A DNA stretch of 43,639 nt from Desulfovibrionaceae bacterium (GCA_050253205.1 JBFWJM010000001.1:1-43639), one strand, 5' to 3'. Shown: positions 11,437-42,724, counted from the first letter of the stretch. The notes: generated by a model not told the origin, from the sequence alone. A program made the numbers and translations.

Positions 11437-11748
11437 GCGCTGCCCCCTCTGCCCGGCTTGGCTGCTGCGGGCCTGTGCTCCTGTCTATTCCAATGCTGCA
11501 TACGCTCCACACCTACGGCATATTCGGCCGATTGTCCGACCTCCGTGAAAGCCAGGGGAGGGCGCGGCCGCCACAAAGCGAACATGCGGGGTGAAGCCAT
11601 GGACAGGTCAAGCGCATTCCGCCACATTTTTGGTTTTCAAAATTGTCAAAAAACCCGGTTTTCCGCATTCATCGTTTACTCCCAAGGGGAATTCCACTAC
11701 AAGGGAGCCGAAAACGAGACGACCGACCATCGGCAAAGGAGCCCTGAC

Positions 11749-12921
11749 GTGAAGATCTCACAACGCCTGTCCCGGCTGAAGCCATCCGCCACCCTGGCCA
11801 TCAACGCCAAGGCCCTCGAACTCAAGGCCCAGGGCCGCGAAGTGACCAGCCTGGCCGTCGGCGAGCCCGATTTCGCCACCCCCCTGCACATCCGCGACGC
11901 CGCCAAAAAGGCCCTGGACCAGGGCCACACCCGCTACACCCCGGTGCCTGGCGTCCCGGCCCTGCGCGAGGCCATCGCCGGATATTTCAAACGGTTCTAC
12001 AACGTGGACGCGGCCATGGAGAACACCATCGCGTCCATGGGCGGCAAACAGGCGCTCTACAACCTCTTCATGGCCCTGCTCGACCCCGGCGACGAGGTGC
12101 TCATCCCCGCGCCGTACTGGGTGAGCTACCCGCCCATGGTGGAACTGGCCCAGGGCGTGCCCGTGGCCGTGCCCACCCAGCCGGAAAACAACTTCCTCGC
12201 CTCGGTGGACGACCTGGAAAAACATTCCACGGACAAGACGCGCATGCTCATCCTGAACACGCCGTCCAACCCCACGGGCTGCCACTACCCCCAGGCCCGG
12301 CTGCTGGAGCTGGCCGAGTGGGCGCTCTCGCGCGGCATCTTCATCGTCTCCGACGAGGTGTACGACCGCCTGGTGTACGAGCCCGCCGCCCCGTCCACAC
12401 TCTCCAAGTTCTGGGAAAAGCACCAGGAGAACGTGGCCGTGGTCAACGCGCTCTCCAAGAGCTTCTGCATGACGGGCTTCCGCATGGGCTACACCCTGGC
12501 CCACCCGGACCTGGTGAAGGCCCTGACCAAGATCCAGGGTCAGTCCACCTCCAACGTCAACTCCATCGCCCAACAGGCGGCCATCGCGGCCTTCAACGGC
12601 TCCTGGGACCTGGTGGAGCAGATGAACTCCGCCTTCCAGACCCGGCGCGACCTGGCGCTCTCCATCTTCAAGAGCTGGGGCGTGAACTGCCCGAGGCCCG
12701 ACGGCGCGTTCTACGTGTTCCCGGTGCTCAGCCAGTTCTATACGGACGACGCCCCGGGCTCCACGGCCATGTGCACCAAGATATTGGAAAAGGCGGGCGT
12801 GGCCCTGGTGCCCGGCGAGGCCTTCGGCGACGACCGCTGCATCCGCTTCTCCTACGCGGTGAAGGAAGACGTGCTCGAAACTGCCCTCGGCAAGGTGGGC
12901 AAGGTGCTGCTCGGGCGTTAG
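11749..12921 (+). CDS. aspC: Aspartate/aromatic aminotransferase (class I PLP enzyme)
   Basis: GTG start at 11749 with an AAAGGAG RBS; LAVGEPDF, NPSNPTG, SKSFCMTGFRMGY (PLP lysine) motifs; the track ORF N-terminal 539 codons are shadow. Confidence 0.88.
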   Translation: MKISQRLSRLKPSATLAINAKALELKAQGREVTSLAVGEPDFATPLHIRDAAKKALDQGHTRYTPVPGVPALREAIAGYFKRFYNVDAAMENTIASMGGKQALYNLFMALLDPGDEVLIPAPYWVSYPPMVELAQGVPVAVPTQPENNFLASVDDLEKHSTDKTRMLILNTPSNPTGCHYPQARLLELAEWALSRGIFIVSDEVYDRLVYEPAAPSTLSKFWEKHQENVAVVNALSKSFCMTGFRMGYTLAHPDLVKALTKIQGQSTSNVNSIAQQAAIAAFNGSWDLVEQMNSAFQTRRDLALSIFKSWGVNCPRPDGAFYVFPVLSQFYTDDAPGSTAMCTKILEKAGVALVPGEAFGDDRCIRFSYAVKEDVLETALGKVGKVLLGR

Positions 12922-13071: not shown

Positions 13072-14235
13072 CTAGAAGCAGTCGATCTCGGCCACGGGCT
13101 CGGTGAGCAGGAAGGAGCCTTCGTCTATCCAGCGCTTGAGCTCGTTGGCGATCTCCAGGCTGCGGGAGTAGCTGGTGAGCGGTACGGTGGTGGTGGCCTT
13201 GCCGTCTATCTCGATGGACCCGCTCATGAGCTCCTCGTAGGTGACCTCGGCCAGGGTCCGGCCCACCCCATTGGGGTAGTCGTAGCCGTAGTCCTTCACG
13301 GGCATCTGGATGTCCGCGTTGGAGACGCCCGTGAACCAGGCGATCTCCTCATTGAGGATGGGAATGGGGATGCCCACGCCCACGGCCAGGGAGCAGCCGT
13401 AGCCCACGATGGACATGCCGCGCAGGTAGCGGGCGTTCATCTTCTTGAGGTCGCCCTTGAGCATGAGCGTGCCGGACGGGGTGGTGGGCACGCCGCGCTC
13501 GTTGCGCGGGGGTTTGGGGTTGTGCTGCGTGCCGGAGCCGATGCAGTAGCCCACGCCGCCGCCCAGGAAGATGCGCGTGCCCAGGCCGATGGTCTTGAAC
13601 TGCGGGTCGTTGAACAGGGGCGAGAGCTGGCCTGCGGTGGCGAAGTTGGCGTTGTTGCCCTTGGGCTTGAGCGGGCCCATGTAGGTGTAGATGGTGCGGC
13701 TGGTGAGGTTCACGGCCACGTTGTAGTTCTGGTAGCAGTTGCGCGGGTTGAGCAGCCAGGCCTGGGGCAGGTCCGCCAGGGTGACGTCCTTTTCCAGTTC
13801 CTTCCTGGGGTAGCAGTCCGTGCCGTAGGCCTCGGCGCGCAGGTGCACGGCCTTGCCGCGCACCAGGTCCTCGATGACATGGCCGCCGCCGTAGGCGAAG
13901 CGCCCGGGGTAGACCTTGTTCAGCGGGTCGTCCTCGGCGGGCTCGGTTGCGCCGATGTAGGCATCCACGGCGGCGATGCCCGCATAGCAGGGCACGTTGT
14001 TGAGCCAGACCTTGGAGGTTTTCATCACCGGAGGCTGCTGCCCCTGGTTGAAGAGCACGCCCGAGGAGCACATGGTGGAGAAGGTGCCGGTGGTGACCAC
14101 GTCCACTTCCCTGGCGGCCTCGGCCTTGCCCCGGCTGCGGACGATCTCCACCATCTCCTCGGCATTGACCACCACGGCCTTGCCTTTCCTGATGCGCTCG
14201 TTGATTTCCTGGATGGTCTTTTTCACCTCGGCCAC
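13072..14235 (-). CDS. COG1900/DUF39 homocysteine-biosynthesis protein (MA1821 family)
   Basis: 387 aa, GTG start with an AGGGAGGG RBS; VVTTGTF...CYAGIAAVDAYIG...FLGGGVGY pattern characteristic of the family. Confidence 0.8.
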   Translation of the reverse strand: MAEVKKTIQEINERIRKGKAVVVNAEEMVEIVRSRGKAEAAREVDVVTTGTFSTMCSSGVLFNQGQQPPVMKTSKVWLNNVPCYAGIAAVDAYIGATEPAEDDPLNKVYPGRFAYGGGHVIEDLVRGKAVHLRAEAYGTDCYPRKELEKDVTLADLPQAWLLNPRNCYQNYNVAVNLTSRTIYTYMGPLKPKGNNANFATAGQLSPLFNDPQFKTIGLGTRIFLGGGVGYCIGSGTQHNPKPPRNERGVPTTPSGTLMLKGDLKKMNARYLRGMSIVGYGCSLAVGVGIPIPILNEEIAWFTGVSNADIQMPVKDYGYDYPNGVGRTLAEVTYEELMSGSIEIDGKATTTVPLTSYSRSLEIANELKRWIDEGSFLLTEPVAEIDCF

Positions 14236-14512
14236 GGGGCCCTCCCTGTGTCGCTCGCCGACCCGAAAACCAATCCTCGAAAAGGCCGGGAGGCGTTGTC
14301 ATTTGTGCAAGCGGCGATCCTCTCTCAATTTTTTCACAAAGGCAATTTTTTTTCTCCCCAGGGGGGTTTCCAGCGGGGGAAAACTTGGCTTCGGGGCTGA
14401 AATCTGGTACAAAAAACAACCCTGGGCGCGAGCGGGGCTGGCCACAGGGCTCTCTTATTTTTTAGTATATATATTCAATGGTTACAAATACAAGAAATCG
14501 ACGACCCACATC

Positions 14513-15817
14513 GTGAAACAAGCCCTGCGCGAACACCTCCTGCAAACCTGCTCCGACAAGGAACTGGCCAGCTGGTTTGATCCGCTTTCGCTGACCGCCC
14601 CGGACGACTCCGGGCTGGTGAGCGTGTCGTTTCCGCATCCGTTCTTCGCCACCTGGTTCGAGGCGAACATGCAGGCCCGTTTCGAGGCGGAGATGCTCCA
14701 GTTTCTGGGCACGGCGGTGGAAATCCGCTACACCAACGGCGCGGGCCGCGCACGCGGGAAGGGTGAATCCCCGGCCGTGACGGCCAAGCTCGAATTCCCC
14801 TACGACAGCCAGTTCATCTTCGAGACGTTTCTGATCAACAAAAAGAACTACTTTCCCATGGCCTCGGCCAGGGAGGTGACCAAGCAGGCGGGCAGCCTGT
14901 TCAATCCGTTCGTCATCTGCGGGAAGAACGGCTCGGGCAAGACGCACCTGCTGCGCTCCATCGCCAACGAACTGAGCAAGAAGGTGGAACACAAGTCCAT
15001 CCTGCTGCTCTCCATGGACGAGCTGAACAACCTTTTCCGGGTGAGCTTCGCCGGAGACCGCTTCCGCGCGAGGGATTTCATCTGCTCCCACAACCACCTC
15101 TTCATCGACGACTTCCAACAGATCCAGAAGTACGACCAGATGCAGCAGGAGATGGTCATCCTGTTCAACCACTTCTACGACAACAAGAAGCAGATGGTCT
15201 TCGCCTGCCTGGACAAGCTCTCCAGCTACGATTTTCTCGACCCGACGCTGCTCTCGCGCCTGGAGTGGGGGCTCATCGTCAACCTCAAGCAGCCCGACCT
15301 GGAAATCCGCATCGAATACATCCAGGACCGGGCAAGGGTGAAGAAGCTGCCGCTGACCAAGGAGCAGGTCCTGACCCTGGCCCAGCGGTTCAAGGACTTC
15401 CGCTACCTGCAAGGCATCCTCATCAAGCTGGCGGCCTTCCGCGAGCTGGTGAAGAAGGAGCTGACCAAGAAGGACTTCGAGCGCATCCTCACCAACACCG
15501 AGGAAAACACCACCGAGACGCTCAACGCGGACCACGTGATCCAGGCGGTTTCCGAACATTTCGGCATGGCCGTGAAGGAGATCAAGGGCTCCAAGCGCCA
15601 CGCCCAGATCGCCCAGGCGAGGCAGGTGGCCATGTGGCTGTGCAAGAACCTCCTGCCCGTGTCGTACCCGGCGCTGGGCCGGGCCTTTGGCGGCAAGGAC
15701 CACTCCACGGTGCTCTACTCCGTCAAAAAGATCGAACAATTGAAAGATGATGACGAGGATATGAACCGATTGTTGAAAGAGTTGAAGAAGAAATGTCTCT
15801 TGCTTGGTCGCAGCTGA
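14513..15817 (+). CDS. dnaA: Chromosomal replication initiator DnaA
   Basis: GKNGSGKTHLL Walker A, IDDFQ Walker B, C-terminal DNA-binding helix ...GGKDHSTVLYSVKKIE; only an in-frame GTG (14513) is available as start, so the start is uncertain. Confidence 0.9.
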   Translation: MKQALREHLLQTCSDKELASWFDPLSLTAPDDSGLVSVSFPHPFFATWFEANMQARFEAEMLQFLGTAVEIRYTNGAGRARGKGESPAVTAKLEFPYDSQFIFETFLINKKNYFPMASAREVTKQAGSLFNPFVICGKNGSGKTHLLRSIANELSKKVEHKSILLLSMDELNNLFRVSFAGDRFRARDFICSHNHLFIDDFQQIQKYDQMQQEMVILFNHFYDNKKQMVFACLDKLSSYDFLDPTLLSRLEWGLIVNLKQPDLEIRIEYIQDRARVKKLPLTKEQVLTLAQRFKDFRYLQGILIKLAAFRELVKKELTKKDFERILTNTEENTTETLNADHVIQAVSEHFGMAVKEIKGSKRHAQIAQARQVAMWLCKNLLPVSYPALGRAFGGKDHSTVLYSVKKIEQLKDDDEDMNRLLKELKKKCLLLGRS

Positions 15818-15951
15818 CAAAAGCGCCTGTTGCGCACTTCGGCGCACCGGAAACCGACACGGGATGTTTCCAACTATAAAAATGAAAACAAGGCGTTGGC
15901 CGCGCTAGGAACAACAAGCGGCGGCTAACTACTACCACAAGGAGTATTTCT

Positions 15952-17112
15952 ATGTTCTTGAGGGTAAACCGGGACGAAATCATCGAAGGCTTGCAGAAGT
16001 CCGCGAACATCATCCCCGCCAAGACCGGAGCCGCCTTCCTGCGGACCATCTGGCTCAAATGCGAGGACGGGCGGCTGAACATCATGTCCACGGACTCCAA
16101 CCTGGAGTTCTGCGGTTCCTATGCCTGCCGCATCGAGGAGGCCGGGCTGGCCGGGGTCCAGGGGCGCGCCTTCTACGAGCTGGTGCGCAAGCTGCCCTCC
16201 GCGGAGCTGACCATCAAGACCGACCCGGACAAGCAGAACATCCTCGTGGAGCAGGGCTCCAGGAAGTACAAACTCCCCGTGAACGACGAGGAGTGGTTCC
16301 AGAAGTTCTCGGCCTTCCCGGAAAACGGCACCGTGTTCTGGTCTGGCGACTTCCTGCACGAGGTCATCGAGAAGATATCCTACTGCATATCCGACGAGGA
16401 CTCCATGGAGGCCATCGCCTGCATCAACATGGTGCCCTCCAAGGACGACGAGGGGAGCATCGAGGTCTGCGGGCTCAACGGCCACCAGTTCGCCATGATG
16501 CGCTTCGTCAACGACGACATCCACGAACTGCTGCCCGAGGAGGGCGTGCTCATCCAGAAGAAATACCTGGCGGAGCTCAAGAAATGGCTCACCGCCGACG
16601 AGATCGAGATGAACATCTCCGAGAAGCGGCTCTTCTTCCGCACCGGGGACAAGACGGAGACCTTCTCCCTGCCGCTCTCGTACTACCAGTACCCGAACTA
16701 CAACAACTTCCTGGCCCGGCTCTCGGATGACGACGTCTCCCGGCTGAGCGTGGTCCGCTCGGAGCTCATCGAGGCCCTGGAGCGCATCTCCATCTTCAAC
16801 ACCGACTCCAACCGCTGCACGCACTTCCTGTTCAAGAACGGCGAGGTGGTGCTCTACTCCCAGGGCCAGGAGACGGGCACGGCCACGGAGGCCATCGAGG
16901 CCGAGTATTCCGGCGGGCTGGAGCGCATCGCGTTTCCCACCAAGAACCTCATCGACATCCTCGGGCACTTCAGCTCCAAGCGGGTGGAGTTCGTGCTCAC
17001 CGGGGCCGAGGCCCCCAGCGGCATCACCGGGCCGGACGACGCCGAGTACCAGACCATCCTCATGCCCATGATGATCCAGGAAGAGACCTACTACACCGAA
17101 GAGGACATGTAA
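15952..17112 (+). CDS. dnaN: DNA polymerase III beta sliding clamp
   Basis: 386 aa, AAGGAG RBS; position after dnaA; typical N-terminus MFLRVNRDEIIEGLQK... Confidence 0.95.
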   Translation: MFLRVNRDEIIEGLQKSANIIPAKTGAAFLRTIWLKCEDGRLNIMSTDSNLEFCGSYACRIEEAGLAGVQGRAFYELVRKLPSAELTIKTDPDKQNILVEQGSRKYKLPVNDEEWFQKFSAFPENGTVFWSGDFLHEVIEKISYCISDEDSMEAIACINMVPSKDDEGSIEVCGLNGHQFAMMRFVNDDIHELLPEEGVLIQKKYLAELKKWLTADEIEMNISEKRLFFRTGDKTETFSLPLSYYQYPNYNNFLARLSDDDVSRLSVVRSELIEALERISIFNTDSNRCTHFLFKNGEVVLYSQGQETGTATEAIEAEYSGGLERIAFPTKNLIDILGHFSSKRVEFVLTGAEAPSGITGPDDAEYQTILMPMMIQEETYYTEEDM

Positions 17113-19509
<2,397 letters not shown>

Positions 19510-20520
19510 GCATGAGCTATTTTCTGTTCGTCGATGAGAGCGGTTTTGACCGCAAGCTGGCCCCTTACGAGGTGCTGGCCGGGGTATGCATCGAAGATCG
19601 TGAGATATGGAACCTTATCCAAAGGGTATGGGAAGCGGAAGAGCGGTTTTTCGGGATGAGGATCACCCTCGGAAAGCTCGAACTCAAGGGAAAGAAGCTG
19701 CTGAAGAGGAAAACATACCGCCTGGCATCACAAGCGGGCCTGTTTTCCTTCGAGCAGCGCAGGGAGCTGGCCGGGCAGTGTCTGATGGACGGGGCGTGCC
19801 CCTCACGTGATCAGCTGACAGCGCTGGCGCAGGCGAAAATTGCCTTTGTGGGCCATGTGTTGGAGCTTTGCGCGTCGCATCGAGTCCGTGCCTTTGCCAG
19901 CATAGTGGACAAGACGGCCGAACGGCAGGAGGGCGACTTTCTGCGCAAGGATTACGCGTATTTGTTCGAGCGGTTTTGTTACTTTCTCAATGAGCCGGAG
20001 CGTGACGGGTCGGGGATTGTCGTCTTTGATGAGCTGGACAAGGCGCAAAGCCGTATTCTCGTCAACCAGATGGCGGAATACTTCCGCAATACGGCCAGGG
20101 GCAGGATGCGCTCGTCGAGGATCGTCCCCGAGCCTTTTTTCGTTCAGCGATCTGACCACGGCGATCCAGCTAGCGGATCTGGTGGCCTACATCATCAACT
20201 GGAGCGTCCGGTTTGGAACCATGGATGAGCCAATCCGCGCGGAGCTCTGCCCGCTAGCTGATCAGGTGCTGGAGCTTCGTCACCGAACCCATCAGCAGAT
20301 CAACGGGAACGATCATTTTGTGGTTTGAAGCTTTACTCAGATTCATGACCTGAGGCCCATGGAGCAGCAATGAAAAAAGGCAATGCCAGCTTGCGCCAAC
20401 AAAGCCTCCATGAAAAAAATAGACATTTTATGTCTATCGGTCAATCCAAAATGATTACAAACGCAATTTCTCACCATGCATATAAATAATAAATTTCCAG
20501 TCAGTTATATTTGGAGGAAT
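19510..20520. other. Low-GC insert between gyrB and gyrA
   Basis: Composition drop by eye; interrupts the otherwise contiguous dnaA-dnaN-gyrB-gyrA block. Confidence 0.6.
19512..20328 (+). pseudogene. DUF3800-family gene, split by a 1-nt frameshift in a T6 run (20135-20140)
   Basis: N-terminal MSYFLFVDESGF (DUF3800 signature) in frame 1 (to 20228); the family C-terminal signature ...FSDLTTAIQLADLVAYIINW continues in the +1 frame (to 20328); removing one T gives ...PEPFSFSDLTTAIQLADLVAY. Confidence 0.65.
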
Positions 20521-20522
20521 GA

Positions 20523-22958
<2,436 letters not shown>

Positions 22959-25920: not shown

Positions 25921-28900
25921 CTACCAAGCCACGGGCATGCGGACCTTCTGCCCGGCCTTGTTCACATAGTACACGCACCCCTCGTTCACCCCGTGGAGGT
26001 AGAGGTCGCGTGTCACGGCCACGTCCTGGCGGCAGTATTCGGTGATCAGGTCCAGGCGGCCCTGCTTCCACCATTCGAGCGCCTGGAGCCCGTCCGCGCT
26101 CTTGGCCGCACCCAGGGTGGCCTGGGCCAGGGTGTCGAGCTTGATGCGAAAGCCCATGCGCTCGTGGATGTGCGCCAGCAGGTCCAGGGTGGGCAAGGAC
26201 TGGAACCGGAAGCTGGAGAGCCCGGAGAGCACGAGGTAGTCGAATCGGATGACGTTGAACCCGATGACCAGGTCGCACTCGGCCAGGTGCTCGGCCAGGT
26301 CGTCGATACGGTCCTCCTCGTAGTCGCTGAAGGCCTCGGAGGCCGAATCCCAGACGCAGGCGACGGACACGCCCATGCGGTCCGCTCGGTTCCAGCCGCC
26401 CACCTCCTGGGCGCTGCGGCGGGTTTCAATGTCCAGCACGGCGTAGCGGCGGGGCAGGGGCATGTCGGGCTCCTTGCGGACGGCGGCCCGGGCGGCGGCG
26501 GGCGCATCGGTTTGGGGTTTGGGTGGCTGTGCAGCTTGCGGGGAGGCCGCTTCAGGACCTGTGTCGGGCGTCGCGGACGTTGCGGACGTCGCGGGCGTCG
26601 CGGACGTTGCGGACGTCGTGGATGTCGCGGAAGTTGATGGCGTGGCGGTCGTTTCCGGCTCGGGCACGTCCGCAGGGTCCAGGGTTCCTGCGGCCAGGGC
26701 CTCGGCCAGGAACAGGGCCGCGCGCTTGTCGATGGGCCGGTTGCCCGAGCCGCACTTGGGCGAGTGCACACAGGAGGGGCAGCCCAGCTCGCACTCGCAG
26801 TCGCGCACGGTCCTGGCCGTGGTCAGGAGCAGGTCGTCCGCCCGGGCAAAGGCCTGGCGCGCGAGCCCCGCGCCCCCGGGCAGGCCGTCGTAGATGAACA
26901 CCGCCGGAGCGCCCACCTGCGGATGGTGCGGCGTGGAGATGCCGCCCAGGTCGTTTCTGTCCGTGAGCACGAGCAGGGGAAGGATGCCGATGGCCGCGTG
27001 CTCCAGCGCGTGGATGCCGCCCATGAAGTGCAGGTACTCGTCCTCGGCCCTGCGGCGCAGTGCGTCCGGCACCACGAACCAGAGACCCTCGGTCTCGAAG
27101 ACCAGCGGCGGCAGGTCGAGGCCCTGGATGCCCATGAGCGTGCCGCCGCGCACGGCGCGCTTCTCGTAGCCCGTGACCTCCTCGGTGACGCGCAGCCTGC
27201 CCAGGAAGAAGGCCGCGCCCAGGGCCTCCCGACGAGCAATTATTTCCAGAATTTCCGTTGACTTGCTCGTGCGAGCGCGGGTGTAATACTTGACCCTGGC
27301 CTGCCGGGCGCGCACGGTTCCGGTCTCCATGTCCAGCTCGCTGACCACGTAGGTCCGGCCCCGATGGAGGTACACGGCCCCGGGGTGCGTCTCCTTGCAG
27401 GCGCGGTGGTGGTCGATGCTGCCGATGCGCTCGCCCGTGTCCTGGTCCTCGATGTGCATGGCCCGGCCCGAGCCGCGCAGGTCCACGTCGCGCTGGGGGC
27501 GCTTGCGCTGGGTGACGATCTCCGTGACCTCGGGCTTCGCCCCGGCGCCCTTGTCCTTTCTGGTGCACCGCTGGGCCACCACCTCGAAGAGCTCGCCCCG
27601 GGCCACCAGCTCCTGGGCCTGCTCAGCCATGCCGGGCTCGGCCAGGTAGGGCTCGCCGGGGCGAAGCGTCATCTCCGCCGCCGCGCACACGAGGTGGCGC
27701 GAGAGGATCACGGGGTTCAGCGGATTGAGCACGGCGGATTCCGGCGGCCGGGCGAAGAAGTCCTCGGGGTGGCGCATGAAGTACTGGTCCAGGGCGTCCT
27801 CCCCGGCGATGAGCGCCACGGCGGAGTCGCGTCTGGCGCGGCCCACGCGCCCGCCCCGCTGCCAGGTGGCCATGACGGAACCGGGGTAGCCCACCAGGAT
27901 GCAGAGGTCGAGCCCGCCGATGTCGATGCCGAGCTCCAGGGCCGAGGTGGAGATGACCGCCAGCAGCTCGCCCGAGCTCATGCGCGCCTCGATGTCGCGC
28001 CGTTCTTCCGGCAAAAAGCCCGCCCGGTACGCGGAGATGCGGTCCTTGAACTGGCCGCCGCGCTCCCCGGCCCAGAGGGCGATGAGCTCCGTGAGCCGCC
28101 GGGATTGGGTGTAGACGATGGTCCGGAGGTCGCGCGCCAGGGCGGACTGGAGCAGCAGGATGGCGGCCTGGGCCGGGCTGTCGTGCGGATTGAGGAAGAC
28201 CATGTGCTGCTCGCTGCGGCCCGCGCCGGACTCCGAAACCTCGACCACGGGCAGGCCGGTGAGCCGCTGGCAGAGCTCCGCCGGGTTGCCCACCGTGGCC
28301 GAGCAGAAGATGAACACGGGGCTTGCGCCCCAGGCCCGGCAGATGCGCAGCAGCCTGCGGAACACCTGGGCCATGTGCGAGCCCATGACGCCCCGGTAGG
28401 TGTGCACCTCGTCCACCACCACGTGGGTCAGGTTGGCGAAGAGCTCGGCCCAGGAGTTGTGGTGCGGCAGGAGCGCCAGGTGCAGCATCTCCGGGTTGGT
28501 GATGAGCGCGCCGGGCGGGTTGTCGCGTATCTTGCGGCGGAAGTGGGGCGTGGTGTCGCCGTCGTAGATGGCCGCGCGGGGGCGCTGGGCCTCGTCCAGG
28601 TGCGGCGGCAGCTCAAGGCCTCCGGCCAGCTCGGTGAAGGCGCGCAACTGGTCCTGGGCCAGGGCCTTGAGCGGGAAGAGGTAGAGCGCTCGGGAGGAGG
28701 GCTCGGCCAGGAGCTGCTCCAGCACGGGCAGGTTGTAGGTAAGGGTCTTGCCCGAGGCCGTGGGCGTGGCCACCACCACGTTGCGCCCGCTTCTGGCCAG
28801 GTCGATGGCCCGGCACTGGTGGGAGTAAAGTTTTTCGATGCCCATGCGGGCCAGCAGCTCGCCCAGCGCCCTGGGCAGGGGCCGCACGGGCTCCTCCAGG

Positions 28901-29007
28901 CTCGCGGGGGAGCCGGGCAGGGTCCGGTGGTGCACCACCTGCCGCCCGAGCCGCTCGGAAGCGAGCAGGGCCTCGACGTATTCGTGGATGGGGTCGGTCT
29001 TGGGCAT
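25921..29007 (-). CDS. MrfA/YprA-like DEAD/DEAH-box SF2 helicase with DUF1998 Cys4 module, fused to a C-terminal MrfB/YprB-like DEDDy (RNase H-fold) exonuclease
   Basis: 1028 aa single ORF; TPTASGKT (I), DEVH (II), SAT (III); CECELGCPSCVHSPKCGSGNRPIDK; low-complexity TTATPSTSATSTTSATSATPATSATSATP linker; then VLDIET, GFNVIRFDY, YCRQDVAVTRDLY exonuclease motifs. Confidence 0.9.
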   Translation of the reverse strand: MPKTDPIHEYVEALLASERLGRQVVHHRTLPGSPASLEEPVRPLPRALGELLARMGIEKLYSHQCRAIDLARSGRNVVVATPTASGKTLTYNLPVLEQLLAEPSSRALYLFPLKALAQDQLRAFTELAGGLELPPHLDEAQRPRAAIYDGDTTPHFRRKIRDNPPGALITNPEMLHLALLPHHNSWAELFANLTHVVVDEVHTYRGVMGSHMAQVFRRLLRICRAWGASPVFIFCSATVGNPAELCQRLTGLPVVEVSESGAGRSEQHMVFLNPHDSPAQAAILLLQSALARDLRTIVYTQSRRLTELIALWAGERGGQFKDRISAYRAGFLPEERRDIEARMSSGELLAVISTSALELGIDIGGLDLCILVGYPGSVMATWQRGGRVGRARRDSAVALIAGEDALDQYFMRHPEDFFARPPESAVLNPLNPVILSRHLVCAAAEMTLRPGEPYLAEPGMAEQAQELVARGELFEVVAQRCTRKDKGAGAKPEVTEIVTQRKRPQRDVDLRGSGRAMHIEDQDTGERIGSIDHHRACKETHPGAVYLHRGRTYVVSELDMETGTVRARQARVKYYTRARTSKSTEILEIIARREALGAAFFLGRLRVTEEVTGYEKRAVRGGTLMGIQGLDLPPLVFETEGLWFVVPDALRRRAEDEYLHFMGGIHALEHAAIGILPLLVLTDRNDLGGISTPHHPQVGAPAVFIYDGLPGGAGLARQAFARADDLLLTTARTVRDCECELGCPSCVHSPKCGSGNRPIDKRAALFLAEALAAGTLDPADVPEPETTATPSTSATSTTSATSATPATSATSATPDTGPEAASPQAAQPPKPQTDAPAAARAAVRKEPDMPLPRRYAVLDIETRRSAQEVGGWNRADRMGVSVACVWDSASEAFSDYEEDRIDDLAEHLAECDLVIGFNVIRFDYLVLSGLSSFRFQSLPTLDLLAHIHERMGFRIKLDTLAQATLGAAKSADGLQALEWWKQGRLDLITEYCRQDVAVTRDLYLHGVNEGCVYYVNKAGQKVRMPVAW
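26565..26655. repeat. 9-bp tandem repeat (CGTYGCGGA on the plus strand) x7-9 inside the helicase gene, encoding the T/S/A/P linker
   Basis: cgtcgcgga cgttgcgga cgtcgcggg cgtcgcgga cgttgcgga cgtcgtgga tgtcgcgga ... Confidence 0.85.
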
Positions 29008-29010
29008 GGG

Positions 29011-29586
29011 TTACTGCTGGGCCAAGAGAGACCGAGCCGCCCGACGCACTCCGGAAATGAAGACGTTGAAACTGTGGGAGGTGTTCCTTTCCAGAGAGAG
29101 GCGGGTCCCCAGGTCTTTGGCTCCCCTGCGCTTGGAGTATTCGGGCACCAGCCGGGCGAGTTCCCGCGAGGGGGACCCGAGGCGGTCGGGGTTCTTGAAC
29201 AGTTTATTCCGTTGTTTTCCGGCCAGTCCCTTGGCTCCCGTAGCTGATTCCACGGCCGCAAGATCACCGAGAAACCAGGACTCCAGCTCGCGGCAGGCGA
29301 TGCGCACCAGCAGCGGCTCCCTCCCGGCCTCGCGGCAGAGCCGCAGGAGGTTTTCCTTCACGCAGGCGCAGTCGCCGCTGTCCTGGTCCCGGACAATGAT
29401 GAACGCGTCTTCCGGGTAGAGCCAGCCTTTCAATTTGAGGGGAATGGACTTTTCCAGGTCCTGTTTTCCCTTGTGGGCGATCAGCACATAGTCCGCAGGG
29501 GTGGTTCCCGGCAACAGGCGCGGCAGGAGCCCGAGCAGGCAGTCCTTCATGGAATCCTCTTCCAGAAGGAAGACGAGCCGCGGCAT
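29011..29586 (-). CDS. DUF4276-like protein with Toprim-like acidic signature (candidate nuclease partner of the upstream ATPase)
   Basis: 191 aa; MPRLVFLLEEDS..., IIVRDQDSGD, RELESWFLGD; ATG overlaps the ATPase TGA (ATGA at 29583-29586). Confidence 0.75.
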   Translation of the reverse strand: MPRLVFLLEEDSMKDCLLGLLPRLLPGTTPADYVLIAHKGKQDLEKSIPLKLKGWLYPEDAFIIVRDQDSGDCACVKENLLRLCREAGREPLLVRIACRELESWFLGDLAAVESATGAKGLAGKQRNKLFKNPDRLGSPSRELARLVPEYSKRRGAKDLGTRLSLERNTSHSFNVFISGVRRAARSLLAQQ

Positions 29587-30767
29587 CAGAACCCGCCCCC
29601 GAGAAGCCCCTGCTGCCAGAGCCACCCGGGCTTGTCTCCGGCGGCGACAAGGCTGCGGATGTTCTCGTCGTCGGCTGCGCGGGAGATTCGCGTTATGCCG
29701 TCTTTCTTCTCCAGGCAGTAGATGTTCTCGATGTCCACGTCGTTCAGAAAATCCGGCGAGTGGGTGGTGACGAAGACCTGCCCGCCTCGCCTGGCGTAGC
29801 TCTCGAACTCCTCGGCCAGCTCTCCCAGGAGCTTGGGGTAGAGCTGGTTTTCCGGTTCCTCCACGCAGAGCAGGGGGTGCGGCGCGGGGTCGTGCAGCAG
29901 CAGCAGGTAGGCGAACATCTTGATGGTGCCGTCGGAGACCCACTGGTCGATGAACGGGTCCTTGAAGGCGGAATCGTTGAACTTGAGCATGAGCCGGCCG
30001 TCGCCCGTTGGCGCGGCCTCGATGTTGTGCACGCCGGGCACCCGCTCCCGCATCTTCTGAAGCACCAGGGCGAAGGTTTCCGGGTGGTGTTCGCGCATGA
30101 AGTCGGCGACCTGGTGCAGGTTGTCTCCCTTGCGGGAAAGATGCTCGGCATACCCGGCGGGCTTGCTGCCGCGCGCCTGGTCGATGTGAAAATCGGAGAC
30201 GTGCCAGTTCTCCAGCATGGTTCGGAACGCGCTCGCGGCCTTGAACTTCTGGAACTGGCCAAGGCCCTTGACGGCGAGGATGTCCGGGGAGCCGAGGTGC
30301 TGCGGTTCCCTGTCGAGCTCCTCGTCCTCCTTGCTGAAGTCTTCCTCGTTGGTTACGGCGTACCCGGAGCCGTCCGAGAAATCGAGAAAGTGAAAAGGAG
30401 CCCCGTTGCGCCCTCGTTTGTAGCGCAGTATCTCCCTTCGGACGGTTACCTTGCCGTCGAGAAGGCCTATCTGGAGAACATACGTCACCAGGCGGTTCGC
30501 CCCGGCGATTTCAAGCCGGAATTTGAGCTCCAGCTCCATGTCCTCGTCCTCGTGGCCGCGCGAGACGACCTCCCGGAACCCGCCGCGCCGGGACAGGGCC
30601 GAGCGGACGTTCTCAGCCAGTGCATCCTTGAGGAATCCGAACACGTCGAACAGGGTCGTCTTGCCGCTGCCGTTGGCACCGAGCAGCACGCAGTATGATG
30701 GGATATCCGACAGCGTCGTATCTTGGAAGACCTTGAAATTCTTGAGCCGGATGGCCTCGATGCGCAT
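29586..30767 (-). CDS. ABC/OLD-type AAA ATPase (AAA_21/AAA_15-like)
   Basis: 393 aa; MRIEAIRLKNFKVF..., Walker A LLGANGSGKTT, Walker B/D-loop LLCVEEPENQLYP, H-loop VFVTTHSPDF. Confidence 0.88.
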   Translation of the reverse strand: MRIEAIRLKNFKVFQDTTLSDIPSYCVLLGANGSGKTTLFDVFGFLKDALAENVRSALSRRGGFREVVSRGHEDEDMELELKFRLEIAGANRLVTYVLQIGLLDGKVTVRREILRYKRGRNGAPFHFLDFSDGSGYAVTNEEDFSKEDEELDREPQHLGSPDILAVKGLGQFQKFKAASAFRTMLENWHVSDFHIDQARGSKPAGYAEHLSRKGDNLHQVADFMREHHPETFALVLQKMRERVPGVHNIEAAPTGDGRLMLKFNDSAFKDPFIDQWVSDGTIKMFAYLLLLHDPAPHPLLCVEEPENQLYPKLLGELAEEFESYARRGGQVFVTTHSPDFLNDVDIENIYCLEKKDGITRISRAADDENIRSLVAAGDKPGWLWQQGLLGGGF

Positions 30768-30809: not shown

Positions 30810-32192
<1,383 letters not shown>

Positions 32193-32220
32193 GAAAGCTC
32201 CCTTTGGGTTGCCCGTGTTC

Positions 32221-33651
32221 TTACTTGGCCGGGAAGATCATGTCCACCCGCGCGCCGCCCTCCACCCCGCAGGAGAGGGTCCACTGCCCGCCGTGGCCCT
32301 CAATGATGGAACCCACGATGGCCAGGCCCAGGCCCGTGCCCGTGTCCTTGGTGGTGAAGAAGGGGTCCTTCAGGCGCTCCATGTGCTCCGGGGGGAAGCC
32401 CGGGCCGTCGTCCATGAACACCACGTGCGCGGAGCCGTTCTCCCTGGCCGCGCTGATGGTGATGACCCCGCCGTCCTTCATGGCCTGGATGGAGTTGGTG
32501 ACCACGTTGTAGAAGGCGCGGTAGAGCAGGTCCTTGTCGCCCATGACCGCGAGGCCCTCGGGGATGTCCACCTCCAGGGCCACGCCGTGCTTCTCGCACT
32601 CCCCGGCAAGGAACACGGCCACCTGCTCCATGACCCGGGAGAGGTCCACCTCCAGCTGCTTGGGGGCCTTGGGCCGGGCGTAGTCGAGGAAGTCCGTGAC
32701 CACCCGCGAGAGGCGCTTGGATTCCTGGTAGATGGCCTCCAGCAGGGGGGCGTCCTTGCTGCCCTCCTTGGCGGCCTTCTTTTTCAGGTGCTCGGCCGTG
32801 GAGCGGATGATGCCCAGGGGGTTGCGTATCTCGTGGGCCACGCCGGAGACCATCCGGCCCATGCCTGCGAGCTTCTCCTGCTGCATGAGCTCGCGCTCCA
32901 GGCGCTCGCGCTCGGCGATGCGGTCGTGGTTCAGCCTGTCCGCCCGGCCGAGGATGGTCAGGATGACCACGAAGAGGATGATGGAGGTGACGAGGCTGGT
33001 GCCCAGCACCACGCGCTCCAGGTTTACGAGCTTGAGGTATTCGTCGGTGATGTCCTGGGTGAACTCCAGCACGCCCATGAGCCGCCCCTTGAAGCCCGTG
33101 GTGGAGAGGGTCTCCTCGCTGCGCATGGGGAAGTAGGTCTTGAGCAGGGTGGTCTCCGGGGCGAGGGAAGAGCTGAACAACGCGCGGACCTTGGAGATGT
33201 TGCTGATGATCTTGAAGCTGTAGACCTGTTCGTTGATGGCCATGTCCACGAACTCGTCCGCCAGGCCCATCTTGCCCACCAGGTCCTTGTCCGTGGAATA
33301 GACCACCATGCCGTTCAGGGCGTACATGCGCACCTCCTTCACGCTGAGCGTGTGGATGGTGGACTGCACGACCTGGTCGAGCCTTCCGGCCTGCTCGGGG
33401 TTGGAGAGCTGGATCTGCCCGTAGCCCACGAGGGTGGGCAGGGTGAAGCGGGTGTAGATCTGGTGGTTGAGGTTCTCGGCCAGCAGCAGGCCGAACTCCC
33501 GCTGCTTCTCCATGAGCGCGTTGTCCACGTAGTTGGAGATGAACAGCGAGAGCCCGAGGTTGAACCCGAGGATGAGCACCAGGAAGCTCCAGGAGAGCAC
33601 CTTCACGAATTGCAGCGGGCGGACGGCCTCGGCGCCGGTTTTTTCGACCAA
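32221..33651 (-). CDS. Sensor histidine kinase (membrane, HisKA + HATPase_c)
   Basis: 476 aa; H-box SGVAHEIRNPL, N/G boxes; two hydrophobic segments; apparent TTG start with AGGAG inside the pgi 3' end, 3 nt after the pgi stop. Confidence 0.88.
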   Translation of the reverse strand: MVEKTGAEAVRPLQFVKVLSWSFLVLILGFNLGLSLFISNYVDNALMEKQREFGLLLAENLNHQIYTRFTLPTLVGYGQIQLSNPEQAGRLDQVVQSTIHTLSVKEVRMYALNGMVVYSTDKDLVGKMGLADEFVDMAINEQVYSFKIISNISKVRALFSSSLAPETTLLKTYFPMRSEETLSTTGFKGRLMGVLEFTQDITDEYLKLVNLERVVLGTSLVTSIILFVVILTILGRADRLNHDRIAERERLERELMQQEKLAGMGRMVSGVAHEIRNPLGIIRSTAEHLKKKAAKEGSKDAPLLEAIYQESKRLSRVVTDFLDYARPKAPKQLEVDLSRVMEQVAVFLAGECEKHGVALEVDIPEGLAVMGDKDLLYRAFYNVVTNSIQAMKDGGVITISAARENGSAHVVFMDDGPGFPPEHMERLKDPFFTTKDTGTGLGLAIVGSIIEGHGGQWTLSCGVEGGARVDMIFPAK

Positions 33652-42166: not shown

Positions 42167-42283
42167 CCGCCCCTCATCGGAAGGATATTTCATTTCGATT
42201 TGAAACACTTCATGTTTTCCAGCATCTTCAGCAATGAACCAGGCAAACGCAAGCTCGGCACGGACGGGCATGGGAGTCGTCGG

Positions 42284-42457
42284 ATGAATGAGGAACGCAA
42301 GGACGCCGCCGAAGCGGCGGAGCCCACGGCACCAGCGGAGCCCACGGCACAGGAAGAGAAGCGCGACGAGCAGCTGAGCGACGAGGAGCTGGACCGGGTG
42401 GCCGGAGGCGCGGGCGAGCCGCAGCCCCAGGGCGACAGGTACATCAGCGGGTTCTGA
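42284..42457 (+). CDS. Double-glycine-leader precursor peptide 1 (57 aa): MNEERKD...EQLSDEELDRVAGG|AGEPQPQGDRYISGF
   Basis: GGGAG RBS 7 nt upstream of the ATG at 42284; high GC3; LSDEELDxVAGG as in Nif11/NHLP/class II bacteriocin leaders; paralog 110 bp downstream. Confidence 0.7.
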   Translation: MNEERKDAAEAAEPTAPAEPTAQEEKRDEQLSDEELDRVAGGAGEPQPQGDRYISGF

Positions 42458-42567
42458 TTCCGGCTGATGGATTATCGAGACGTCTGGCAGCGGCCTGTTG
42501 CTGCGAATGGTCTGGGCGATGATACTCTGGCGATTTCTGGGCGATACTCGGGCGATATGGAGTTTTC

Positions 42568-42720
42568 ATGAGCCAAGAACGCAAGGATACGGTGGATCTG
42601 GAGCAGGCGAAGAATGAGCAGCCCCGCAATGAGCGGCTGAGCGACGAGGAGCTGGACCAGGTGGCTGGCGGGGCGGGCGAGGGCAACCCCAACCATGACG
42701 ACGGCGTGATGCTCTTTTAG
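42568..42720 (+). CDS. Double-glycine-leader precursor peptide 2 (50 aa): MSQERKD...ERLSDEELDQVAGG|AGEGNPNHDDGVMLF
   Basis: Hand-translated; too short for the ORF track; GGAG RBS 5 nt upstream; shares M-x-x-ERKD and LSDEELDxVAGGAGE with peptide 1. Confidence 0.65.
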   Translation: MSQERKDTVDLEQAKNEQPRNERLSDEELDQVAGGAGEGNPNHDDGVMLF

Positions 42721-42724
42721 GCCG

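What the first reader, a model, noticed from the sequence alone, without database searches (positions are those of the whole stretch)
42284..42720. Two tandem paralogous double-glycine-leader peptides with Cys-free 15-aa cores (one invisible to the ORF track)
Peptide 1 is 57 aa (MNEERKD...EQLSDEELDRVAGG-AGEPQPQGDRYISGF). Peptide 2 is 50 aa, hand-translated from 42568 (MSQERKD...ERLSDEELDQVAGG-AGEGNPNHDDGVMLF). Both have their own GGAG-type RBS and GC-rich third codon positions.

The sequence LSDEELDxVAGG is the classic C-terminal end of Nif11/NHLP and class II bacteriocin/lanthipeptide leaders, which are cleaved by C39-peptidase ABC exporters.

Both cores are exactly 15 aa. They share A-G-E at positions 1-3, P6, D9 and a C-terminal F. 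They contain no Cys and almost no Ser/Thr, so they are not lanthipeptide- or sactipeptide-like.

No maturase or exporter (PCAT, radical SAM, YcaO, LanM, ATP-grasp) lies in the window, which ends about 900 bp further on. Three options remain: a new RiPP class, unmodified exported peptides, or CSP/BlpC-style peptide signals, which would be unusual in a Gram-negative anaerobe.
Basis: partly seen in the sequence, partly recalled or inferred. Interest (0 to 1): 0.8.

Follow-up and report, generated by a model that had tools for sequence, protein, structure and literature searches.

The report
Orphan pair of double-glycine-leader peptides
Two small neighbouring genes in an uncultured sulfate-reducer-type bacterium (Desulfovibrionaceae) encode peptides with a textbook "cut here and export" leader followed by a 15-residue payload, but no processing or export genes lie nearby, so this is a real, lineage-specific example of a well-known kind of secreted peptide, not a demonstrably new system.

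Summary
Two tandem paralogous ORFs, pep1 (42284-42457, 57 aa) and pep2 (42568-42720, 50 aa), each have a GGAG ribosome-binding site, gene-like codon usage and a canonical double-glycine leader (LSDEELDxVAGG) followed by a Cys-free 15-aa core. The same pair, with an in-frame 15-nt indel and nearly unchanged cores, occurs in a 94%-identical relative.

No other protein shares the cores. This was checked with a profile search of 1.84 billion representatives, a GTDB genome scan and a metagenome DNA scan.

The window is the dnaA-gyrA origin region of a Desulfovibrionaceae chromosome. It holds no C39-ABC exporter, radical SAM, YcaO, LanM or ATP-grasp maturase, and neither do about 10 kb of right flank in the relative.

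The flanking enzymes are not peptide-specific. The FAD reductase/HAD and methyltransferase/M16 peptidase pairs are conserved in outgroup genomes that lack the peptides. There, five unrelated genes sit where the peptides are here.

Best reading: these are genuine orphan double-glycine precursors, cut and exported by an unlinked peptidase-containing ABC transporter. Their modification state and role are unknown. Such peptides are well known in Gram-negative bacteria (class II microcins, RaxX). Verdict: a new member of a known kind, of modest interest.

The parts
42272..42276 (+). Shine-Dalgarno-like GGGAG, 7 nt upstream of the pep1 ATG
   Evidence: Read directly from the sequence. Invariant in the relative.
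42284..42409 (+). pep1 leader, 42 aa: MNEERKDAAEAAEPTAPAEPTAQEEKRDEQLSDEELDRVAGG
   Evidence: The double-glycine consensus is met. Sub-threshold hits to the ends of leader models.
42410..42457 (+). pep1 core AGEPQPQGDRYISGF (15 aa) plus stop codon
   Evidence: The relative differs only by R10K and one synonymous change.
42442..42469 (+). RNA hairpin straddling the pep1 stop codon (CAUCAGC.GG / CC.GCUGAUG). Possibly a transcript-stabilising or attenuating stem between the two genes.
   Evidence: Folding energy -15.6 kcal/mol, z = -3.5 against shuffles. Kept in the relative through two changes to G.U pairs, z = -2.8. Its function is inferred, not shown.
42511..42557 (+). Imperfect tandem repeat (TCTGGGCGAT..GATACTC[T/G]GGCGAT, twice) just upstream of the pep2 ribosome-binding site
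   Evidence: families D5, D7. The relative lacks 15 nt here and has diverged, so this is probably slippage and not a conserved operator.
42559..42562 (+). Shine-Dalgarno-like GGAG, 5 nt upstream of the pep2 ATG
   Evidence: Conserved in the relative.
42568..42672 (+). pep2 leader, 35 aa: MSQERKDTVDLEQAKNEQPRNERLSDEELDQVAGG
   Evidence: The relative carries an in-frame 15-nt (5-aa) insertion in the N-terminal part.
42673..42720 (+). pep2 core AGEGNPNHDDGVMLF (15 aa) plus stop codon. The stop lies 4 nt from the stop of the convergent methyltransferase gene.
   Evidence: The relative differs by H8T only.

Best explanation
pep1 and pep2 are genuine, recently duplicated protein-coding genes for double-glycine-leader precursor peptides.

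Proposed mechanism:
1. Each precursor is made in the cytoplasm.
2. [quoted passage not shown]
3. The leader is cut after Gly-Gly.
4. A 15-residue, anionic, Cys-free peptide is released outside the cell: AGEPQPQGDRYISGF (one acidic residue in excess of basic) and AGEGNPNHDDGVMLF (three acidic residues, none basic).

The peptides are most likely unmodified or only lightly modified, and act extracellularly as a signal or in competition.

Shown: the ORFs, their coding character, the leader motif, their conservation in one relative, and the absence of linked machinery. Inferred: cleavage, export, the identity of the exporter, and the role of the peptides.

The genes are a lineage-specific acquisition at a synteny break between two conserved housekeeping gene pairs.
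For: Coding status:
- Codon log-odds fall in the range of real genes and are the best among the small ORFs.
- Both genes have a ribosome-binding site at correct spacing.
- Both ORFs are intact in the 94%-identical relative, which has an in-frame 15-nt indel in the variable part of the pep2 leader, an invariant LSDEELDxVAGGAGE stretch, and a single conservative change in each core.
- The same two proteins were called independently in JGI and Logan assemblies.

Leader:
- It fits the double-glycine consensus exactly, and that consensus occurs only at these two places in six frames of the window.
- All weak model hits are to leader ends: Nif11, NHLP, XyeA, CTB bacteriocin, bacteriocin_sig, type-A lantibiotic.
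- The closest solved chain is the tail of a Nif11 leader...EELSDSELEAVAGG.
- The same leader type (M..EEKK..LSDEELDKVAGG) lies directly beside a Peptidase_C39 + ABC_membrane + ABC_tran transporter in locus L010.

Precedent for unlinked or non-cognate processing in a Gram-negative:
- RaxX has a 39-residue double-glycine leader and a Cys-free mature peptide, and is cut by the PCAT RaxB. A non-cognate PCAT can partly replace RaxB (PMC6637879; bioRxiv 10.1101/442517).
- PCATs are reported as widely distributed in Gram-negative bacteria (PMC12219008).

Neighbours are not dedicated partners:
- The FAD reductase/HAD and methyltransferase/M16C peptidase pairs are conserved in Desulfovibrionaceae that lack the peptides.
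Against: - No PCAT, membrane-fusion protein or immunity gene lies within 42 kb upstream or about 10 kb downstream in the relative. The rest of the genome could not be examined.
- There is no expression or mass-spectrometry evidence.
- Comparative evidence rests on a single close relative with about 6% DNA divergence. By my count on the alignment, roughly 14 nonsynonymous and 11 synonymous codon changes separate the two peptide pairs. That is too few to prove purifying selection.
- The leaders (35-42 aa) are longer than simple export leaders (15-24 aa), which leaves room for recognition by a modifying enzyme.
- Anionic 15-mers do not resemble known class II bacteriocins or microcins.
- No histidine kinase or response regulator is linked, as would be expected for a classical peptide pheromone.
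Confidence: 0.5

Rival explanations
1. The two peptides are RiPP precursors. Their cores are post-translationally modified by enzymes encoded elsewhere in the genome before or during double-glycine cleavage. This would resemble the scattered precursors of the prochlorosin, Nif11 and NHLP systems. The positions shared by the cores (A1, E3, P6, D9, F15) would be recognition or modification sites. One example is an N-terminus-to-Asp9 macrolactam of the lasso kind. Another is chemistry at Asp or at the C-terminal Phe.
For: - The leaders are 35-42 aa, longer than needed for export alone.
- The cores of both paralogs and both lineages keep AGE-x-[QN]-P-[QN]-x-D-x5-F.
- The weak model hits are all to RiPP leader families.
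- An Ala or Gly at core position 1 with Asp at position 9 is the ring-forming geometry of 9-membered lasso peptides. This comes from my own knowledge and was not tested.
Against: - No radical SAM, YcaO, LanM, ATP-grasp, lasso B/C or sulfotransferase gene lies in the window or the relative's flanks.
- The N-terminal leader is low-complexity, variable and carries an indel between close relatives, which is not what a conserved enzyme-recognition element looks like.
- Lasso leaders carry a penultimate Thr and, in many, a YxxP motif (my own knowledge). Position -2 here is Gly and the leaders contain no Tyr.
- The only aromatic residue inside the pep2 core, His8, is Thr in the ortholog, so a three-residue cyclophane site is not conserved.
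- Core similarity can simply reflect a recent duplication.
Confidence: 0.22
2. The genes are stranded remnants. They would be precursor genes acquired by horizontal transfer, or left behind when a larger cluster was lost at this rearranged site. They are still intact but no longer processed or exported, and are drifting towards loss.
For: - The locus is a synteny break. In outgroup genomes five unrelated genes (an 809-aa protein, a DUF362 ferredoxin-type protein, and pabA/B/C-like genes) lie between HAD and the methyltransferase, where the peptides are here.
- The peptide family is absent from all other genomes and metagenomes searched.
- No partner genes are nearby.
- Divergence of the peptide region (about 7-10% of nucleotides, my count on the alignment) is similar to that of the flanking non-coding DNA, while the HAD protein is 98% identical.
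Against: - Both ORFs, both ribosome-binding sites and the complete leader motif are intact in two lineages.
- The only indel inside an ORF is in frame.
- The cores are the least changed parts.
- Codon usage is host-like, which argues against a very recent foreign origin.
Confidence: 0.18
3. The ORFs are not genes. On this view the region is non-coding DNA, or an RNA element, that happens to be open in this frame.
For: - High-GC genomes produce many spurious ORFs.
- No sigma-70-like promoter or intrinsic terminator was found by the simple scans.
- Comparative depth is shallow.
Against: - A 12-residue canonical leader motif occurs twice in tandem and nowhere else in the six-frame translation.
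- Codon log-odds are gene-like in this frame only.
- The ribosome-binding sites are correctly spaced.
- The indel is in frame.
- There is no Rfam match, and the intergenic RNA folds no better than shuffles apart from one hairpin.
Confidence: 0.08

Closest known systems
Double-glycine (GG) leader peptides processed by peptidase-containing ABC transporters (PCAT/AMS; class II bacteriocin and class II lanthipeptide leaders)
   Same: The leader end LSDEELDxVAGG matches the consensus L-12, E-8, L-7, hydrophobic -4, G-2, G-1. The genes are small tandem paralogs with a shared leader and diverged cores. The same leader type lies next to a C39-ABC transporter in L010.
   Different: No transporter is linked here. 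The leaders are 35-42 aa, against 15-24 aa for simple export leaders. The cores are 15 aa, anionic and Cys-free, and are unrelated to any described bacteriocin.
RaxX of Xanthomonas oryzae (sulfated Tyr peptide; raxX-raxSTAB)
   Same: A Gram-negative producer. The precursor is about 60 aa with a 39-residue double-glycine leader whose N-terminal part is polymorphic. The mature peptide is short, Cys-free and rich in Pro, Gly, Asn and Asp. The leader is removed by a PCAT, and a non-cognate PCAT can partly substitute (PMC6637879; 10.1101/442517). pep2 even shares N-P-x-H-D with RaxX21, HVGGGDYPPPGANPKHDPPPR (PMC4646787).
   Different: RaxX sits beside its sulfotransferase and exporter, and nothing comparable is linked here. 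The essential Asp-Tyr sulfation site is absent from pep2, and pep1 has D-R-Y without the NPxHD stretch. The His is Thr in the ortholog. The motif match is therefore probably chance.
Class II microcins of Gram-negative bacteria
   Same: A double-glycine signal, with export by a PCAT, a membrane-fusion protein and TolC in a diderm cell. These peptides are now reported as widespread beyond the Enterobacteriaceae (PMC12219008).
   Different: Microcin signals are about 15-19 aa and their cores are tens of residues long, with the PCAT, membrane-fusion and immunity genes adjacent. Here the cores are 15 aa and no such genes are nearby.
Nif11-type and NHLP-type RiPP leaders (TIGR03798, TIGR03793)
   Same: The same C-terminal leader end. 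Precursors of these families can lie far from their maturase and transporter (my own knowledge).
   Different: Only the last 15-24 model positions align, at 14-19 bits against cut-offs of 32.3 and 50.9. The N-terminal Nif11 or nitrile-hydratase-like domain is absent.
Gram-positive double-glycine peptide pheromones (ComC/CSP, BlpC)
   Same: A double-glycine leader followed by an unmodified mature peptide of 15-25 aa, exported by a PCAT (my own knowledge).
   Different: Those genes sit next to their histidine kinase, response regulator and exporter. Here the nearest kinase and sigma-54 regulator pair (30810-33651) is 8.6 kb away. A kinase next to pgi is also present in an outgroup genome without the peptides.

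Membership tests
Double-glycine leader peptide (PCAT substrate) | Leader ending in the consensus L-x3-E-L-x2-[IVL]-x-G-G immediately before the core | tested here: met
   LSDEELDRVAGG and LSDEELDQVAGG. These are the only two matches in the six-frame translation of the window. Invariant in the relative apart from the x position.
Double-glycine leader peptide (PCAT substrate) | Score above the curated cut-off of a leader model (for example TIGR01847 bacteriocin_sig) | tested here: not met
   pep2 scores 13.3 bits against a cut-off of 15.7. All other leader models are also below threshold. The short models and the short motif make this weak evidence in either direction.
Double-glycine leader peptide (PCAT substrate) | A C39-peptidase ABC transporter encoded nearby or elsewhere in the genome | tested here: inconclusive
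   None is present in the 43.6-kb window or in about 10 kb of right flank in the relative. The rest of the genome is not available.
Double-glycine leader peptide (PCAT substrate) | Cleavage after Gly-Gly and export of the core | not testable with these tools
   Needs mass spectrometry or an in vitro C39 assay.
Nif11 / NHLP leader RiPP precursors | Full-length match to TIGR03798 or TIGR03793 above the cut-off | tested here: not met
   18.9 and 14.9 bits against 32.3 for TIGR03798; 14.5 and 13.9 bits against 50.9 for TIGR03793. Only the last model positions align.
Lanthipeptides / sactipeptides / ranthipeptides | Cys (with Ser/Thr for lanthipeptides) in the core | tested here: not met
   No Cys in any of the four cores. 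There is one Ser in pep1, and one Thr in the pep2 ortholog.
Class II microcins | A 15-19 aa double-glycine signal, a core of tens of residues, and adjacent PCAT, membrane-fusion and immunity genes | tested here: not met
   The leaders are 35-42 aa and the cores 15 aa. No such neighbours are present.
Lasso peptides | Gly/Ala/Ser/Cys at core position 1 and Asp/Glu at position 7-9 | tested here: met
   A1 and D9 are invariant in all four cores, assuming cleavage after GG.
Lasso peptides | Penultimate Thr in the leader, and adjacent B (RRE/protease) and C (Asn-synthetase-like cyclase) genes | tested here: not met
   Position -2 is Gly. No such genes are in the window or the relative's flanks.
XyeA-type triceptides (radical SAM cyclophane RiPPs) | Match to TIGR04495 above the cut-off, conserved aromatic-x-x sites, and an adjacent radical SAM enzyme | tested here: not met
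   20.4 bits against 33, on the leader only. His8 of pep2 is Thr in the ortholog. There is no radical SAM gene nearby.
RaxX/PSY-type sulfated peptides | An Asp-Tyr sulfation site and a linked tyrosylprotein sulfotransferase | tested here: not met
   pep2 has no Tyr. pep1 has D-R-Y. No sulfotransferase is in the flanks.

The most novel reading that the evidence does not exclude
The two peptides would found a new, very narrowly distributed family of Cys-free peptide natural products or signals in Desulfovibrionaceae. The conserved core frame AGE-x-[QN]-P-[QN]-x-D-x5-F would be modified by unlinked, so far unrecognised enzymes, or recognised by a receptor. One candidate modification is an Ala1-to-Asp9 head-to-side-chain macrolactam made on a double-glycine leader in place of a lasso-type leader. 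If so, this would be double-glycine-leader peptide signalling or RiPP chemistry of a kind not described in sulfate reducers.
Probability: 0.1. Interest if true: 0.6.

Novelty: new member of a known kind. Interest (0 to 1): 0.3.

Why it matters
If the peptides are made and exported, they would be a rare documented case of double-glycine-leader secreted peptides in the Desulfovibrionaceae. My two full-text searches combining Desulfovibrio with double-glycine or RiPP-precursor terms found nothing relevant. The predicted 15-mers are small enough to synthesise and test directly for signalling or antagonism in anaerobic communities such as landfills. The locus also shows how such precursor genes can sit alone, far from their exporter, and so escape cluster-based genome mining. 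As it stands, it adds one more lineage-specific core to a very large and well-understood leader class.

Tried and rejected
1. Wider family. All of these searches returned only leader-level matches with unrelated cores:
- A word-indexed search of 5.8 billion proteins.
- A full HMMER profile search of 1.84 billion representatives.
- A GTDB species-representative scan.
- A metagenome DNA scan for EEL[DE]xVAGGAGE.
The metagenome scan found a single hit and did not recover the known JGI relatives. That collection evidently does not hold those samples, so this negative is weaker than it looks.

2. Neighbouring enzymes as tailoring enzymes. The methyltransferase, M16C peptidase, geranylgeranyl-reductase-family flavoprotein, HAD hydrolase and FMN reductase were considered and rejected. 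The two pairs that flank the peptides occur in the same arrangement in Desulfovibrionaceae genomes without the peptides, and the FMN reductase is also present in one such outgroup (L017).

3. The peptide region as a degraded remnant of the five genes found at this site in outgroups. tblastn gives nothing better than E = 0.02 over 38 residues.

4. RNA element. There is no Rfam hit. The upstream and intergenic regions fold no better than shuffles.

5. Promoter and terminator scans. Nothing useful, and the consensus may not suit this organism.

6. PSY/RaxX mimicry through the shared N-P-x-H-D. Rejected as probably chance: pep2 has no sulfatable Tyr and the His is not conserved.

7. Lasso-peptide, graspetide, cyclophane and lanthipeptide readings. 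Each fails a defining feature (see the membership table).

8. Finding the rest of the genome. The window appears to be a complete contig. Exact-protein look-ups gave only short contigs, or the 48-kb contig of the relative, which ends about 9 kb after pep2.

Full report
**What is there**

The plus strand of window 42284-42720 carries two small ORFs in tandem.
- pep1, 42284-42457, 57 aa: MNEERKDAAEAAEPTAPAEPTAQEEKRDEQLSDEELDRVAGG|AGEPQPQGDRYISGF.
- pep2, 42568-42720, 50 aa: MSQERKDTVDLEQAKNEQPRNERLSDEELDQVAGG|AGEGNPNHDDGVMLF.

Each has a Shine-Dalgarno-like site. GGGAG lies 7 nt before the pep1 ATG and GGAG lies 5 nt before the pep2 ATG. The two proteins are 54% identical. They share an invariant LSDEELDxVAGGAGE stretch and core positions A1, G2, E3, P6, D9 and F15.

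**Is it more than chance?**

- The double-glycine regex L-x3-E-L-x2-[IVLM]-x-G-[GAS] matches only these two places in all six frames of the 43.6-kb window.
- I trained a codon-usage log-odds model on 20 Pfam-supported genes of the window. It gives 0.63 bits/codon for pep1 and 0.75 for pep2. The training genes score 0.59-1.27. Every other frame of the two ORFs scores 0.04 or less.
- Among the 147 ORFs of 40-90 aa in the window, pep2 ranks first and the ORF containing pep1 ranks second.
- The 28-codon TTG extension that the ORF lister attaches to pep1 (42200-42283) scores -0.22. Its changes between the window and its relative alter the encoded residues at several positions. The ATG at 42284 is therefore the start.

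**Conservation**

A word-indexed search of 5.8 billion proteins found only one other pair, P0002 and P0004. That pair lies on contigs from four JGI metagenomes and two Logan assemblies, all with the same gene order. A landfill metagenome run (SRR27751818; bioRxiv 10.1101/2024.05.30.596742) carries peptides identical to the window's.

The relative is about 94% identical at the DNA level across the locus.
- In pep1 I count six synonymous and six nonsynonymous codon changes. The core changes only R10K plus one silent site.
- In pep2 I count about eight nonsynonymous and five synonymous changes, plus a 15-nt in-frame insertion in the variable N-terminal leader. The core changes only H8T.
- The leader motif and the AGE start are invariant.

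This fits coding sequences with a fast-evolving N-terminal leader and more constrained motif and core. The divergence is too small for a formal dN/dS test, and the flanking non-coding DNA is about as conserved.

**No wider family**

- A full HMMER profile search of 1.84 billion cluster representatives gave the window's own two peptides at 6e-28 and 1e-25. The next hits, at E between 7e-6 and 9e-4, match the leader only. Several are proteins with repeated xDEELxKVAGGAG units. None shares the core.
- A scan of 185,579 GTDB species representatives found nine loci. Most are in Firmicutes MAGs, with one each from a cyanobacterial and a Coriobacteriia MAG. All are leader-level matches with unrelated sequence after the motif.
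- A DNA-pattern scan of the metagenome collection for EEL[DE]xVAGGAGE found one locus, L021, with an unrelated core.

The core family is therefore confined to this lineage as far as the data reach.

**Context**

The window is the replication-origin region of a Desulfovibrionaceae chromosome. In order it encodes:
- hisS, ribonucleotide reductase, an epimerase, a sigma-54 response regulator, an aminotransferase and HcyBio;
- dnaA, dnaN, gyrB and gyrA;
- a TPR protein, dapF, a DEAD/MZB helicase and an AAA_21 ATPase;
- a sigma-54 regulator with its histidine kinase, pgi and glnA;
- an HxlR regulator, an FMN reductase, a geranylgeranyl-reductase-family flavoprotein (minus strand) and a HAD hydrolase;
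- pep1 and pep2, followed by a convergent class I methyltransferase.

The nearest named relatives of the HAD protein are Paucidesulfovibrio and other Desulfovibrionaceae, at 65% identity or less. None of the ORFs scanned carries a C39 peptidase, ABC exporter, HlyD, radical SAM, YcaO, LanM or ATP-grasp maturase domain.

The relative's contigs extend about 10 kb past the window's right edge. That stretch holds the methyltransferase, an M16C (PreP-like) peptidase, a GAF-GGDEF protein, an ADP-forming acyl-CoA synthetase/GNAT fusion and an RHS/YD protein. No exporter or maturase is there either.

**Are the neighbours partners?**

No.
- The methyltransferase has orthologs at 47-81% identity throughout the Desulfovibrionaceae.
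- In outgroup MAGs the methyltransferase is again paired divergently with the M16C peptidase.
- The FAD reductase/HAD divergent pair is likewise conserved.
- In those genomes, a block of five unrelated genes lies between HAD and the methyltransferase: an 809-aa protein, a DUF362/ferredoxin protein, and pabA, pabB and pabC-like genes. One outgroup has the pab genes only.
- In the window's lineage that block is gone and the two peptide genes occupy its place.
- The peptide region is not a remnant of the block (tblastn).

The peptides are therefore a lineage-specific arrival at a synteny break, flanked by housekeeping genes.

**Family tests**

Pfam and NCBIfam give only sub-threshold matches, all to the last 13-31 residues of leader models:
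- Nif11: 18.9 bits against a cut-off of 32.3.
- NHLP: 14.5 against 50.9.
- XyeA: 20.4 against 33.
- CTB bacteriocin: 16.7 against 32.
- bacteriocin_sig: 13.3 against 15.7.
- Type-A lantibiotic: 16.7 against 21.7.

The closest solved chain is the tail of a Nif11 leader. So the peptides carry the generic double-glycine leader end but are not Nif11 or NHLP members.

The same leader type (MSEEKKSAPLSDEELDKVAGG) lies directly downstream of a Peptidase_C39-ABC transporter in an Oscillospiraceae MAG, L010. That supports the functional reading of the motif. Other loci with this leader (L008, L016, L021) show no such transporter among the ORFs I scanned in the fetched DNA, so isolated precursor genes may not be rare.

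**Mechanism**

The best-supported account is that both precursors are recognised through the LSDEELDxVAGG helix by the C39 peptidase domain of an unlinked PCAT. They are cut after Gly-Gly and exported as 15-residue anionic peptides. Cleavage, export and role are inferred, not shown.

Literature precedent comes from Gram-negative bacteria.
- Class II microcins and PCATs are widespread (PMC12219008).
- RaxX of Xanthomonas has a 39-residue double-glycine leader with a polymorphic N-terminal part and a short Cys-free mature peptide.
- RaxX is processed by the PCAT RaxB, and a non-cognate PCAT can partly replace RaxB (PMC6637879; bioRxiv 10.1101/442517).
- The Dirix et al. 2004 in silico screen for such peptides in Gram-negative genomes is cited in PMC6637879.

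**Rivals**

- RiPP with unlinked enzymes. The long leaders and the shared core frame AGE-x-[QN]-P-[QN]-x-D-x5-F leave this open. Ala1 with Asp9 is the geometry of nine-membered lasso rings. However, the leader lacks the lasso hallmarks and no B or C genes are near. The cyclophane, lanthipeptide, graspetide and sulfopeptide readings each fail a defining feature.
- Stranded remnant. The synteny break, the absence of partners and the narrow distribution fit this. The intact ORFs, ribosome-binding sites and motif in two lineages argue against decay so far.
- Non-coding. This is unlikely given the codon statistics, the motif and the in-frame indel.

**Other features**

- A stable hairpin (42442-42469; -15.6 kcal/mol; z = -3.5) straddles the pep1 stop codon. 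It is kept in the relative through two changes to G.U pairs. It may stabilise or attenuate the transcript between the two genes.
- An imperfect tandem repeat (42511-42557) precedes the pep2 ribosome-binding site and varies between the lineages.
- The pep2 stop codon is 4 nt from the stop of the convergent methyltransferase, and no terminator was predicted.

**Verdict**

Nothing indicates a new class of system. This is a new, lineage-specific member of a very large known kind. Interest is modest, at 0.3.

The most novel reading that the evidence does not exclude is a new Cys-free modified peptide or signal family in sulfate reducers. I put its probability at about 0.1.

Noticed in passing
window 13997-22958: dnaA, dnaN, gyrB and gyrA lie in a row, so the window spans the chromosomal replication-origin region. 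About 1 kb between gyrB (ends 19509) and gyrA (starts 20523) has no assigned gene and was not examined.
   Followed up: no
window 42167-42724 compared with L017 6709-12708 and L022 2477-7476: This is a synteny break. In outgroup Desulfovibrionaceae MAGs, five genes lie between the HAD hydrolase and the methyltransferase: an 809-aa protein with no Pfam hit, a DUF362/ferredoxin protein, and pabA, pabB and pabC-like genes. In the window's lineage only the two peptide genes are there, and none of the five genes occurs anywhere in the window.
   Followed up: yes
window 42442-42469: A stable hairpin overlaps the pep1 stop codon (z = -3.5). It is preserved in the relative by two changes that give G.U pairs.
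   Followed up: partly
window 42511-42557: An imperfect tandem repeat rich in GGCGAT lies directly upstream of the pep2 ribosome-binding site. The relative lacks 15 nt of it.
   Followed up: partly
window 25921-30767 (minus strand): A 1028-aa DEAD/Helicase_C/MZB (MrfA-like) protein with an RNase_H_2 C-terminal domain lies close to a 393-aa AAA_21/AAA_15 (AbiEii-type) ATPase. This could be a small defence or repair island. It was not checked against the defence-system library.
   Followed up: no
window 3355-4479 (minus strand): A 374-aa ORF has only an HSDR_N (type I restriction R-subunit N-terminal) domain. The neighbouring ORF at 1984-2628 has no Pfam match.
   Followed up: no
window 10132-12921: A 929-aa ORF matches aminotransferase class I/II only in residues 570-921. 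The long N-terminal part is probably an over-extended ORF in this high-GC DNA, or a separate unrecognised gene.
   Followed up: no
L021 4548-5390 (minus strand): A metagenome contig carries three tandem small ORFs with similar leaders and unrelated cores. Two have the leader MTDKKKHDDRDRQKISDEELEDVAGG, and one of those cores also starts with AGE. The third (MTEEKKLSDDELKDVAEG) lacks the Gly-Gly.
   Followed up: partly
P0005-P0011 and P0014: Several proteins of 95-155 aa contain two to four repeats of a leader-like unit (xDEELxKVAGGAG) separated by short Pro-rich segments. They may be multi-core double-glycine precursors.
   Followed up: no
window 42685-42699 (pep2 core residues 5-9): The pep2 core stretch N-P-N-H-D resembles the N-P-K-H-D of RaxX and the plant PSY peptides. 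The His is Thr in the ortholog and pep2 has no Tyr, so I judge this a chance match.
   Followed up: partly
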